A stretch of 64,000 nt of DNA from the human T2T-CHM13v2.0 reference genome, Homo sapiens. The DNA is taken from the NCBI RefSeq assembly GCF_009914755.1, contig NC_060930.1, one strand, 5' to 3'. Below the pieces are notes generated by a model. It was not told where the DNA came from. It saw nothing but the letters and a program-made list of their open reading frames with translations, and ran no database searches. Below, piece after piece: positions 3,583-4,355 of this stretch. Made by a program: the position numbers and the translations under genes. The stretch's first letter is position 1; every line of letters begins with the position of its first letter.

Positions 3583-4132
3583 TTAAGTAGATAAAGAAGA
3601 AAATGTATGGTACTGCATGTGTATGTATATGTATATGTACATTTATACAGTATACATAAACATCTACATGTACTTTAGCTCACAGGTGACAATCCTGCAC
3701 ATAAGTATCACTTCAACACTTCAAACCTAAGGTCACTTGAGATCAGTGGCTTTCATCTCAATTTTAATACTTATGTTTTAGAACTTTAAAATACAATTGC
3801 TTAGACTTCACTTCAAAGACATAAAGTAGTAGCAACTTAGTCATGCATTTTGTGGTTTGTTTTACAAGAAATAAATTACAGTATGTAACAAACAATAATA
3901 TAAAACCGCCAAGAAAAAAATTTTAAACTAGCAATATTTGATATGAGAGGATAAAGACTATAATGAGAGAAAACTGTTCTGTTTTTCTGACACTCTTGAT
4001 GTTCTCCTTATCATATATATCACTCAGTCAGAAACAATGACAGAATTACTAATCCCAAGCAATGTTTTAAAAGCATGAATTCACTGATTAGTTTATTAAG
4101 GACCTTCTTATTTTTTTTATAGAGACCTTTTT

Positions 4133-4305
4133 ATTTTTTATTTATTTATTTTTTAGTTTAGGGTCATAGATGCATTTTATATGTATATATATACATATAT
4201 ATATATATTTTATTATACTTTAAGTTCTAGGGTACATGTGCACAACCTGCAGGTTTGTTACATATGTATACATGTGCCATGTTGGTGTGCTGCACCCATT
4301 AACTC
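4133..4305 (-). mobile_element. 5'-truncated L1PA (PA4-PA6-like) 3' end with short 3' transduction and A tail
   Basis: 4208-4305 'ttattatactttaagttctagggtacatgtgcacaac...gctgcacccattaactc' is the antisense L1PA 3' terminus; TSD 4117-4132 and 4327-4342 (14/16 match). Confidence 0.92.
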
Positions 4306-4329
4306 AGGGATCATTTCTATAGTTTGTTA
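4304..4329 (+). pseudogene. SNORD3: U3 snoRNA 5'-region fragment (about nt 14-39) inside the L1 insertion
   Basis: 'tcagggatcatttctatagtttgtta' vs recalled U3 'UCAGGGAUCAUUUCUAUAGUGUGUUA' (25/26). Confidence 0.8.
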
Positions 4330-4355
4330 TGGAGACTTTTTTAAACAATAGGTAA

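What the first reader, a model, noticed from the sequence alone, without database searches (positions are those of the whole stretch)
4117..4342. Inverted U3 snoRNA-L1 chimera: apparent twin priming on a second RNA
Seen: between two copies of a 16-bp TSD (ttatagagaccttttt at 4117-4132; ttatggagactttttt at 4327-4342) lie a T-rich tail, a non-L1 stretch, an antisense L1PA 3' end (4208-4305) and then 'tcagggatcatttctatagtttgtta' (4304-4329), which matches the 5' region of U3 in the SENSE orientation, opposite to the L1. The two parts overlap by 'tc'. The U3 sequence just past the junction (UUACUAGAGA, recalled) resembles the TSD start (ttatagaga). Established: the classic U6/U3/U5-L1 chimeras are co-linear, and L1 5' inversions arise by twin priming on the same RNA with microhomology to the target. 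Inference: the second-strand overhang annealed to a different RNA (U3) and was reverse transcribed, so twin priming occurred in trans. I cannot tell whether this locus or class is already catalogued.
Basis: partly seen in the sequence, partly recalled or inferred. Interest (0 to 1): 0.85.

Follow-up and report, generated by a model that had tools for sequence, protein, structure and literature searches.

The report
Inverted U3 snoRNA–L1 chimeric insertion
A short piece of U3 small nucleolar RNA was copied into the genome back-to-front beside a stub of an L1 retrotransposon in a single insertion event; this is a real but already described kind of by-product of L1 activity.

Summary
Window 4304-4329 is U3 snoRNA nt 13-38. 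It matches the chr17 U3 genes at 25/26 and the commonest dispersed U3 copies at 26/26. It lies in sense orientation against an antisense L1 3' end (4208-4305), and a 16-bp target-site duplication (14/16) encloses both. The L1 endonuclease site TTTTT/AAAC fits only the L1 orientation. U3 nt 36-45 resembles the duplicated target.

This geometry is what priming of a second cDNA on U3 RNA from the second-strand nick predicts. That model is already in print: Doucet 2015 for U5, U1, U2 and U6, and a 2026 Cell Genomics catalogue for 5S, tRNA and U5. The catalogue lists 22 U3/L1 chimeras, one of them antisense. This chr6 locus is not among them.

I aligned 88 U3-bearing places of the same genome. Four are inverted U3/L1 chimeras with clean duplications (this one included) and three more are probable. 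All seven end at U3 nt 38-42, as do about 25 stand-alone short U3 pseudogenes.

Verdict: a new, uncatalogued member of a known kind. Primate orthologues could not be examined.

The parts
4117..4132 (+). Left copy of the target-site duplication (ttatagagaccttttt). Its 3' T-run served as the primer for first-strand synthesis on the L1 tail.
   Evidence: 14/16 identical to 4327-4342; 3 matches in the window against 0.13 expected.
4133..4157 (-). T-rich run, the complement of the A-rich terminal tail of the inserted RNA (aaaaaataaataaataaaaaat on the minus strand).
   Evidence: Read directly.
4155..4183 (-). Non-L1, non-repetitive stretch inside the tail. It may be a short 3' transduction or tail-internal filler; its origin is unknown.
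   Evidence: the 29-mer with up to 3 mismatches occurs only here in the genome.
4184..4207 (.). (TA)n-like microsatellite next to the L1 end, probably a degenerate inner poly(A).
   Evidence: The L020 copy has a similar TA run at the same place.
4208..4305 (-). 5'-truncated L1 3' end, about the last 98 nt, L1PA type.
   Evidence: 95.9% to the L1PA5-labelled copy, 94.8% to the L1PA3-labelled copy, 89.8% to the L1PA2-labelled copy.
4304..4305 (.). 2-nt microhomology 'tc', shared by the L1 end and U3 nt 13-14; the joint between the two cDNAs.
   Evidence: L1 continues aactcgtc in L020.
4304..4329 (+). U3 snoRNA nt 13-38 in sense orientation on the + strand, opposite to the L1.
4327..4342 (+). Right copy of the duplication (ttatggagactttttt). 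Its first 3 nt (tta) are shared with U3 nt 36-38. The L1 endonuclease site TTTTT/AAAC lies at 4342/4343.

Best explanation
A single L1-mediated insertion, old and with no known function, that carries two cDNAs.

1. L1 ORF2p nicked the + strand at ctttt/aaac.
2. The T-run primed reverse transcription of an L1 RNA tail and about 98 nt of the L1 3' end.
3. The other strand was cut 16 nt away. Its 3' end (...gtctctataa-3') paired with U3 snoRNA around nt 36-45 (UUACUAGAGA) and primed a second cDNA. That cDNA ran towards the U3 5' end.
4. The two cDNAs were joined at a 2-nt overlap (tc), which cut U3 off at nt 13.

What is shown: the anatomy, the duplication, the endonuclease site and the complementarity. 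What is inferred: the order of events and the identity of the primer.

The start window at U3 nt 36-43 is probably set by U3 itself, either by an accessible segment or by a pre-cut 5' fragment, because unrelated loci share it.
For: - **One duplication encloses both parts**, and it is unlikely by chance.
- **Endonuclease site.** TTTTT/AAAC fits the L1 consensus in the L1 orientation. The other boundary reads ATAA/AAAA.
- **Orientation and polarity.** U3 is in the opposite orientation, 3'-truncated at the duplication and 5'-truncated at the L1 joint. That polarity is what a cDNA primed from the second nick would give.
- **Complementarity.** The left duplicate matches U3 nt 36-45 at 9 of 10 positions with one bulged C (TTA, then TAGAGA). 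My manual count over the whole duplicate is 13 of 16.
- **No source locus.** The 66-nt junction is unique in the genome, so no extant locus could have been retrocopied.
- **Recurrence.** Of 88 U3-bearing places aligned, I dropped 7 as chance pattern hits. Among the remaining 81, L016, L020, L027 (this locus) and L052 have the same architecture. Their perfect or near-perfect duplications are 13, 14, 16 and 12 bp, and each has a T-rich/purine endonuclease site in the L1 orientation. L015, L029 and L100 probably share it.
- **Prior art.** The same model is published for other small RNAs.
Against: - **No orthologous empty or half-filled site could be examined**, so a single event is inferred only from the duplication.
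- **The shared end point weakens a purely annealing-driven start.** U3 ends at nt 38-42 in all seven inverted loci and in about 25 stand-alone short U3 pseudogenes whose target sequences are unrelated. Microhomology at the U3/duplication junction is only 0-3 nt in the other three clean loci. The long match here may therefore be partly luck in a T-rich site.
- **A pre-made U3 5' fragment or U3 cDNA captured at the break would give the same product.**
- **The tail is unexplained.** It contains a unique 29-nt stretch of unknown origin.
- **The structural argument is weak.** Rfam's consensus pairs nt 1-41 as a hairpin. ViennaRNA folds nt 5-64 as one hairpin with its loop at nt 34-36. The two disagree.
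Confidence: 0.68

Rival explanations
1. Capture of a pre-existing U3 5' fragment. Either a discrete U3 RNA fragment ending near nt 38-43 or its cDNA was joined to the L1 cDNA at the 5' end of the insertion. The join would be by end joining or by the polymerase switching onto a DNA template, with no priming from the second-strand nick by annealing.
For: The U3 end point is stereotyped at nt 33-48 in 34 of 81 U3-derived loci, whatever the target sequence. The 2026 paper itself suggests that a specific cleavage produces U3 fragments (passage). 5S rRNA 1-45 and tRNA 1-37 pieces behave alike in its tables.
Against: The U3 end falls exactly where the target resembles U3. A random ligation would not need that match. 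Random capture would also place U3 in either orientation. Yet all seven L1-joined short pieces in my sample are inverted and none is co-linear. I looked for no direct evidence of such a fragment.
Confidence: 0.2
2. Retrocopy of a pre-formed chimeric transcript. A source locus already had an antisense U3 pseudogene fragment next to an L1 3' end. It was transcribed and retrotransposed as one RNA.
For: This would explain a single duplication and one tail without invoking a second priming event.
Against: The 66-nt junction occurs only at this locus in the T2T genome, and so does the 29-nt tail stretch. The other inverted loci have different L1 break points and different U3 start points, so each junction arose independently.
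Confidence: 0.05
3. Two separate insertions. Either an L1 landed in or beside an older U3 pseudogene, or a U3 piece landed beside an older L1 stub.
For: This does happen. L012 and L060 are Alu elements inserted into stand-alone U3(1-38/40) pseudogenes. There the U3 halves flank the Alu and U3 nt 13-27 or 13-21 are duplicated.
Against: Here the sequence left of the tail is not U3 nt 1-12 plus a duplicated U3 segment. The duplication pairs the unique left flank with the sequence to the right of U3. Neither part has a duplication of its own.
Confidence: 0.04
4. Chance resemblance to U3, or an inverted L1 segment produced by ordinary twin priming on the L1 RNA itself.
For: The Rfam score is below the gathering threshold.
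Against: The piece matches dispersed U3 copies at 26/26. The reversed control found 0 matches against 121 for the 20-mer, and 0 were expected in the window. A copy number of 121 is incompatible with L1 sequence.
Confidence: 0.01

Closest known systems
Inverted snRNA/L1 chimeras attributed to twin priming (Doucet et al. 2015, Mol Biol Evol, PMC4476161; passages read)
   Same: The small RNA is 3'-truncated and lies in the opposite orientation to a 5'-truncated L1, inside one duplication. The endonuclease consensus fits only the L1 orientation. The RNA and the insertion site are complementary at the junction. The start sites cluster in one region of the RNA.
   Different: That study covered spliceosomal snRNAs: four U5, plus U1, U2 and one U6. 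U3 was not among its inverted cases.
Antisense RNA/LINE-1 chimeras in 'Comparative genomics reveals LINE-1 recombination with diverse RNAs' (Cell Genomics 2026, PMC13174262; passages, Table S2 parts 1-2 and Table S3 part 1 read)
   Same: The paper proposes twin priming on a second RNA for antisense 5S (1-45), tRNA (1-37), U5 and mRNA pieces. It lists one antisense U3:6-39/L1PA5 locus on chr3, which by its structure is my L020.
   Different: It reports U3/L1 as 95.5% sense (21 of 22 rows). The chr6 locus is not among the 22 rows. I judge from their chromosomes that L015, L016, L029, L052 and L100 are also absent. The catalogue depends on RepeatMasker-annotated RNA pieces, and a 26-nt piece may not be annotated. 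That last point is my inference.
Co-linear U3/L1 and U6/L1 chimeras by template switching (Buzdin et al. 2002/2003; recalled, and cited)
   Same: A bipartite insert made by L1 machinery within one duplication; the L1 part is 5'-truncated.
   Different: Those are in the same orientation, and their U3 part is usually nt 1 to about 70. Here U3 is inverted and ends at nt 38.
L1 5' inversions by twin priming on the same RNA (Ostertag and Kazazian 2001; recalled, and cited)
   Same: The same geometry and the same use of the second-strand 3' end as primer, with microhomology.
   Different: The inverted segment is not L1.
Self-primed, 3'-truncated U3 pseudogenes (Bernstein, Mount and Weiner 1983; known only from the citation seen and from recall)
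   Same: A U3 5' fragment without poly(A).
   Different: Those start at nt 1, end near nt 70 and stand alone with their own duplication.

Membership tests
Inverted small-RNA/L1 chimera of the twin-priming type (Doucet 2015, group IV 'twin') | The small-RNA segment is 3'-truncated. | tested here: met
   U3 ends at nt 38 of 217, or nt 45 if the target-like stretch is counted.
Inverted small-RNA/L1 chimera of the twin-priming type (Doucet 2015, group IV 'twin') | The segment lies in the opposite transcriptional orientation to a 5'-truncated L1 and directly abuts its 5' end. | tested here: met
   L1 lies on the minus strand at 4208-4305 and U3 on the plus strand at 4304-4329, with a 2-nt overlap.
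Inverted small-RNA/L1 chimera of the twin-priming type (Doucet 2015, group IV 'twin') | One target-site duplication flanks both parts. | tested here: met
   16 bp, 14/16 identical; 0.13 chance matches expected in the window.
Inverted small-RNA/L1 chimera of the twin-priming type (Doucet 2015, group IV 'twin') | The L1 endonuclease consensus fits the L1 orientation and not the small-RNA orientation. | tested here: met
   TTTTT/AAAC at 4342/4343 against ATAA/AAAA at the other boundary, read. The consensus TTTT/AA is recalled and also cited.
Inverted small-RNA/L1 chimera of the twin-priming type (Doucet 2015, group IV 'twin') | The small RNA and the insertion site are complementary at the junction. 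| tested here: met
   TTA is shared. U3 nt 36-45 matches the left duplicate at 9 of 10 positions with one bulge.
Inverted small-RNA/L1 chimera of the twin-priming type (Doucet 2015, group IV 'twin') | Both parts are present or absent together in orthologous loci, showing a single event. | not testable with these tools
   No primate genomes or alignments are on hand.
Co-linear U3/L1 chimera by template switching | U3 and L1 lie in the same orientation, with the U3 3' end joined to the L1. | tested here: not met
   The strands are opposite, and it is the U3 5' end that is joined to the L1.
U3 snoRNA gene (Rfam RF00012) | Score at or above the gathering threshold (34 bits), with the C/D-box domain present. 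| tested here: not met
   17.5-21 bits, and only model positions 1-41 are matched.
Self-primed stand-alone U3 pseudogene (nt 1 to about 70) | Starts at nt 1, ends near nt 70 and has its own duplication. | tested here: not met
   The piece spans nt 13-38 and shares its duplication with the L1.
Ordinary L1 5' inversion (twin priming in cis) | The inverted segment is L1 sequence. | tested here: not met
   The 20-mer occurs 121 times in the genome, and the places I examined are U3 copies.

The most novel reading that the evidence does not exclude
U3 may be used by the L1 machinery in two separable ways.

- **Nt 36-43 start window.** This window yields stand-alone 'short' U3 pseudogenes and, when engaged at the second-strand nick, inverted L1 chimeras. 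In my sample 7 of 33 short-class events are inverted chimeras and 0 are co-linear.
- **Nt 62-85 window.** This yields the classical pseudogenes of about 70 nt and co-linear chimeras. In my sample 7 of 43 are co-linear and 0 are inverted.

If this holds, the published 95.5% sense bias for U3/L1 would be partly an annotation artefact, because pieces of 26-36 nt are missed. The end point would then predict the mechanism, and it would point to a discrete U3 5' fragment or an accessible hinge as the ORF2p entry site.
Probability: 0.4. Interest if true: 0.45.

Novelty: new member of a known kind. Interest (0 to 1): 0.3.

Why it matters
The locus itself has no evident function. It sits in a gene-poor stretch with no annotated gene in the window. 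Its value is as a clean, uncatalogued example showing that the second-strand nick of an L1 integration can recruit a nucleolar RNA.

It also acts as a pointer. Very short inverted U3 pieces appear to be under-counted in the current catalogue, which lists 1 against at least 4 clean cases in my partial sample. The shared end point at U3 nt 38-42 gives a concrete, testable handle on where ORF2p starts on a structured non-polyadenylated RNA.

Tried and rejected
- **Rfam scan**. The U3 hit is below threshold. It is useful only as a pointer and was replaced by direct alignment to the chr17 gene copy.
- **Search for a source of the junction** **and of the non-L1 tail stretch**. Each occurs only at this locus, so no 3' transduction source or parent chimera was found.
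- **L012 and L060.** These first looked like inverted U3/Alu chimeras. One search showed they are Alu insertions into stand-alone U3 pseudogenes, so I rejected them.
- **A longer duplication covering the U3 piece.** I rejected this by eye. The left flank 4091-4116 matches the right-hand U3 piece at only about 8 of 26 positions in register. No statistical test was run.
- **PF08333 as a probe for the L1 3' part** is not in the library. I used catalogue-labelled L1 copies inside fetched loci instead. They cover only the last 1.46 kb of an L1PA2, so older L1s were recognised by eye and from recall. For L100, a copy-number search gave 1062 first-look candidates, of which 40 were scored at 73-79% identity.
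- **Term search of the paper's spreadsheets for chr6 coordinates** found nothing. A positive control for a row known to exist also found nothing, so that search is void. The absence of the locus rests on reading the whole U3 sheet.
- **The census is partial.**
  - The two pattern searches gave 121 and 117 places. About 9 of the 117 are expected by chance, judging from the reversed control.
  - I aligned 88 loci. Not examined: 18 of the 20 places asked for, the full-length copies listed, and 21 plus 17 places that the tool did not list.
- **Primate orthologues** could not be examined with these tools.

Full report
**What is in the sequence**

- **Duplication.** ttatagagaccttttt (4117-4132) and ttatggagactttttt (4327-4342) are 14/16 identical. 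A search of the whole window on both strands for the right copy with up to 2 mismatches gave 3 places, against 0.13 expected from 100 shuffles. One is the right copy itself. One is the left copy, which sits exactly where a duplication should, just before the T-rich tail. The third is an unrelated place at 57919.
- **Between the copies**, from left to right:
  - a T-rich run (4133-4157);
  - a stretch that occurs nowhere else in the genome, its 29-mer being unique at up to 3 mismatches;
  - a (TA)n-like run;
  - an antisense L1 3' end (4208-4305);
  - the 26-mer tcagggatcatttctatagtttgtta (4304-4329).

**Identity of the two parts**

- **L1 part.** It is 95.9% identical over 98 nt to the L1 in locus L020 and 94.8% over 96 nt to the one in L021. 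By structure and approximate position, I equate these with rows labelled L1PA5 and L1PA3 in Table S2 of PMC13174262. Identity to copies labelled L1PA2 and L1PA7 is about 90%. It is therefore an L1PA-type stub of middling age. I cannot assign a subfamily from 98 nt.
- **U3 part.** I took a real U3 gene from the same genome with the Rfam U3 model (chr17 copy at L001:1501-1717, 199 bits) and aligned it. Window 4304-4329 is U3 nt 13-38 with one difference, G33 to T.
- **The T is not a random mutation.** The 21-mer of nt 18-38 with T33 occurs exactly at 24 places, including full-length dispersed copies. G33 is seen only in the five chr17 copies and one chr22 copy among the hits with 0 or 1 mismatch. 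I cannot say whether T33 marks an older or a variant source gene. It also occurs in a chimera whose L1 is labelled L1PA2 (L046).
- **Neither chance nor L1.** The 20-mer of nt 13-32 with up to 1 mismatch occurs 121 times in the genome against 0 for the reversed control. The match is therefore not chance, and the copy number is far too low for L1 sequence.
- **Rfam.** On its own it gives only 17.5-21 bits (E 0.02-0.03), below the gathering score of 34, because the piece is so short.

**Geometry**

- The + strand reads cttttt/aaac at 4342/4343, which is the L1 endonuclease consensus (TTTT/AA, recalled and cited). The nick leaves a T-run that would prime on the tail of an L1 RNA.
- That accounts for the left duplicate followed by T-rich sequence and antisense L1.
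- The other boundary reads ATAA/AAAA on the minus strand. It is not a consensus site, which is usual for the second cut.
- The minus-strand 3' end left by that cut (...gtctctataa-3') is complementary to U3 nt 36-45 (TTACTAGAGA) at 9 of 10 positions, with C39 bulged.
- Over the whole 16-nt duplicate I count 13 matches to U3 nt 36-52 by hand.
- A cDNA primed there would run from nt 35 towards the U3 5' end. It would appear on the + strand as sense U3 ending at the duplication, which is what is seen.
- It stops at nt 13, where 'tc' is shared with the L1 end. L1 continues aactcgtc in L020.
- Identity to U3 falls from 26/26 to about 10/15 beyond nt 38. The boundary is therefore real, and the rest is target sequence.

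**Alternatives tested**

- **Retrocopied source locus.** The 66-nt junction is unique in the genome, so there is no extant source.
- **Two separate insertions.** Each part would then need its own duplication, and neither has one. Such cases do exist and look different. In L012 and L060 an Alu sits inside a stand-alone U3(1-38/40) pseudogene, with U3 nt 13-27 or 13-21 duplicated on either side.
- **A longer duplication that includes the U3 piece.** I rejected this by eye. The left flank resembles it only weakly.

**Is it one of a kind?**

I aligned 88 loci to a gene copy and to a full-length dispersed copy.

- Seven loci scored only 32-39 and had no U3 similarity beyond the pattern, so I dropped them as chance hits.
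- Of the remaining 81:
  - 4 are full length;
  - 43 end at nt 62-85, the classical class;
  - 34 end at nt 33-48. These count as 33 events, because L033 and L090 share flanks and look like a segmental duplicate.
- About 25 of the short ones stand alone. They start at nt 1, lack poly(A) and have 10-16-bp duplications that begin with A-rich sequence.
- Seven have an antisense L1 directly upstream of a 5'-truncated sense U3 that ends at nt 38-42.
  - **Clean:** L016, L020, L027 (this locus) and L052. Their duplications are 13, 14, 16 and 12 bp, and each has a T-rich/purine site in the L1 orientation.
  - **Probable:** L015, L029 and L100. Their duplications lie in T-runs or are short. The L1 in L100 is recognised from recall plus a copy-number search (1062 first-look candidates, 40 scored at 73-79% identity).
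- None of the 43 long-class loci is inverted. I inspected the five that are 5'-truncated by eye. Seven of the 43 are co-linear chimeras by BLAST adjacency.
- Fisher's exact test for 7/33 against 0/43 gives p = 0.002, and for 6/33 p = 0.005.
- **Caveats.** The sample is partial. It was ascertained with patterns spanning nt 13-38. The L1 probe covers only 1.46 kb of an L1PA2 3' end.

**What is known**

- **Doucet et al. 2015** (PMC4476161; passages read) describe inverted, 3'-truncated U5, U1, U2 and one U6 joined to 5'-truncated L1 inside one duplication. The endonuclease consensus holds only in the L1 orientation, and there is junction complementarity. They explain these by twin priming on the snRNA.
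- **The 2026 Cell Genomics paper** (PMC13174262; passages) extends the idea to 5S rRNA (1-45), tRNA (1-37), U5 and mRNAs.
  - Its Table S2 U3 sheet, which I read whole, has 22 rows: 21 sense and one antisense (chr3, U3:6-39 with a 158-bp L1PA5). That row matches L020.
  - No row lies near this chr6 locus. The two chr6 rows are sense chimeras with L1PA16 and L1MA4A.
  - I could not read the PDF supplements with Figures S3C and S3D.

The class and the mechanism are therefore in print. This locus, and apparently several sister loci, are not in that catalogue.

**Mechanism and its limits**

The shared end point at nt 38-42, in inverted chimeras and stand-alone copies alike and with unrelated targets, argues that U3 itself sets the start window. 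Either an accessible segment or a pre-cut 5' fragment could do so. Structure predictions do not settle this. Rfam's consensus pairs positions 1-41 as a hairpin. ViennaRNA folds nt 5-64 of the naked RNA as one hairpin with its loop at nt 34-36 (z = -3.4).

I put 0.68 on priming from the second-strand nick on U3 RNA and 0.2 on capture of a pre-made fragment or cDNA. The rest goes to a chimeric source transcript, separate insertions or chance.

**Verdict**

It is not new as a class. This is a new member of a known kind with no evident function. The side result on end point and orientation is worth a proper genome-wide check.

Noticed in passing
window 4352-4658 (+), flanks 4343-4354 and 4650-4664: A sense Alu (weak Metazoa_SRP hits) starts about 10 nt to the right of the right duplicate. 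Its own likely duplication (aaacaataggta against aaaaaaaaggta) begins at the same TTTTTT/AAAC site. The same endonuclease site therefore seems to have been used twice, once on each strand.
   Followed up: partly
L015:590-1850 (G000:C1:217788842-217791861): This is an inverted L1/U3(6-38) chimera. The 10 nt after U3 (tccatctggc) are the reverse complement of the L1 end just before U3 (gtcagatgga, 9/10). The whole insert sits in, or is fused to, the tail of an antisense Alu. The repeat aagcatacttttt lies outside both. It may be a tripartite or hairpin-mediated event.
   Followed up: partly
L099:1-120 (G000:C1:171104960-171105260, minus strand): A U3-derived palindrome. taacaaactata and tatagtttgtta flank gatcatttc, and further inverted U3 5' pieces lie downstream. 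It looks like a fold-back cDNA product and is not joined to L1.
   Followed up: no
L012 and L060 (G000:C1:26480090-26483109; G000:C2:173269258-173272277): Two independent antisense Alu insertions into stand-alone short U3 pseudogenes. In both, the duplicated U3 segment starts at nt 13, the same U3 position as the L1 joint in the window.
   Followed up: partly
81 U3-derived loci: The 3' end points of truncated U3 copies are bimodal: nt 33-48 in 34 loci and nt 62-85 in 43 loci. The long class often ends in or beside the U3 A-tract at nt 72-75. Internal priming by a T-rich nick would explain this as simply as the classical self-priming model.
   Followed up: partly
L080:1480-1500 (G000:C8:63529872-63532891): The U3 copy starts at nt 9 and is preceded by cctgaaag, the reverse complement of U3 nt 10-17. 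This is a small snap-back at the 5' end.
   Followed up: no
window 3600-3690: A TA/TG-rich low-complexity stretch gives weak sub-threshold hits to several microRNA families (mir-297, mir-466). These are most likely artefacts of composition.
   Followed up: no
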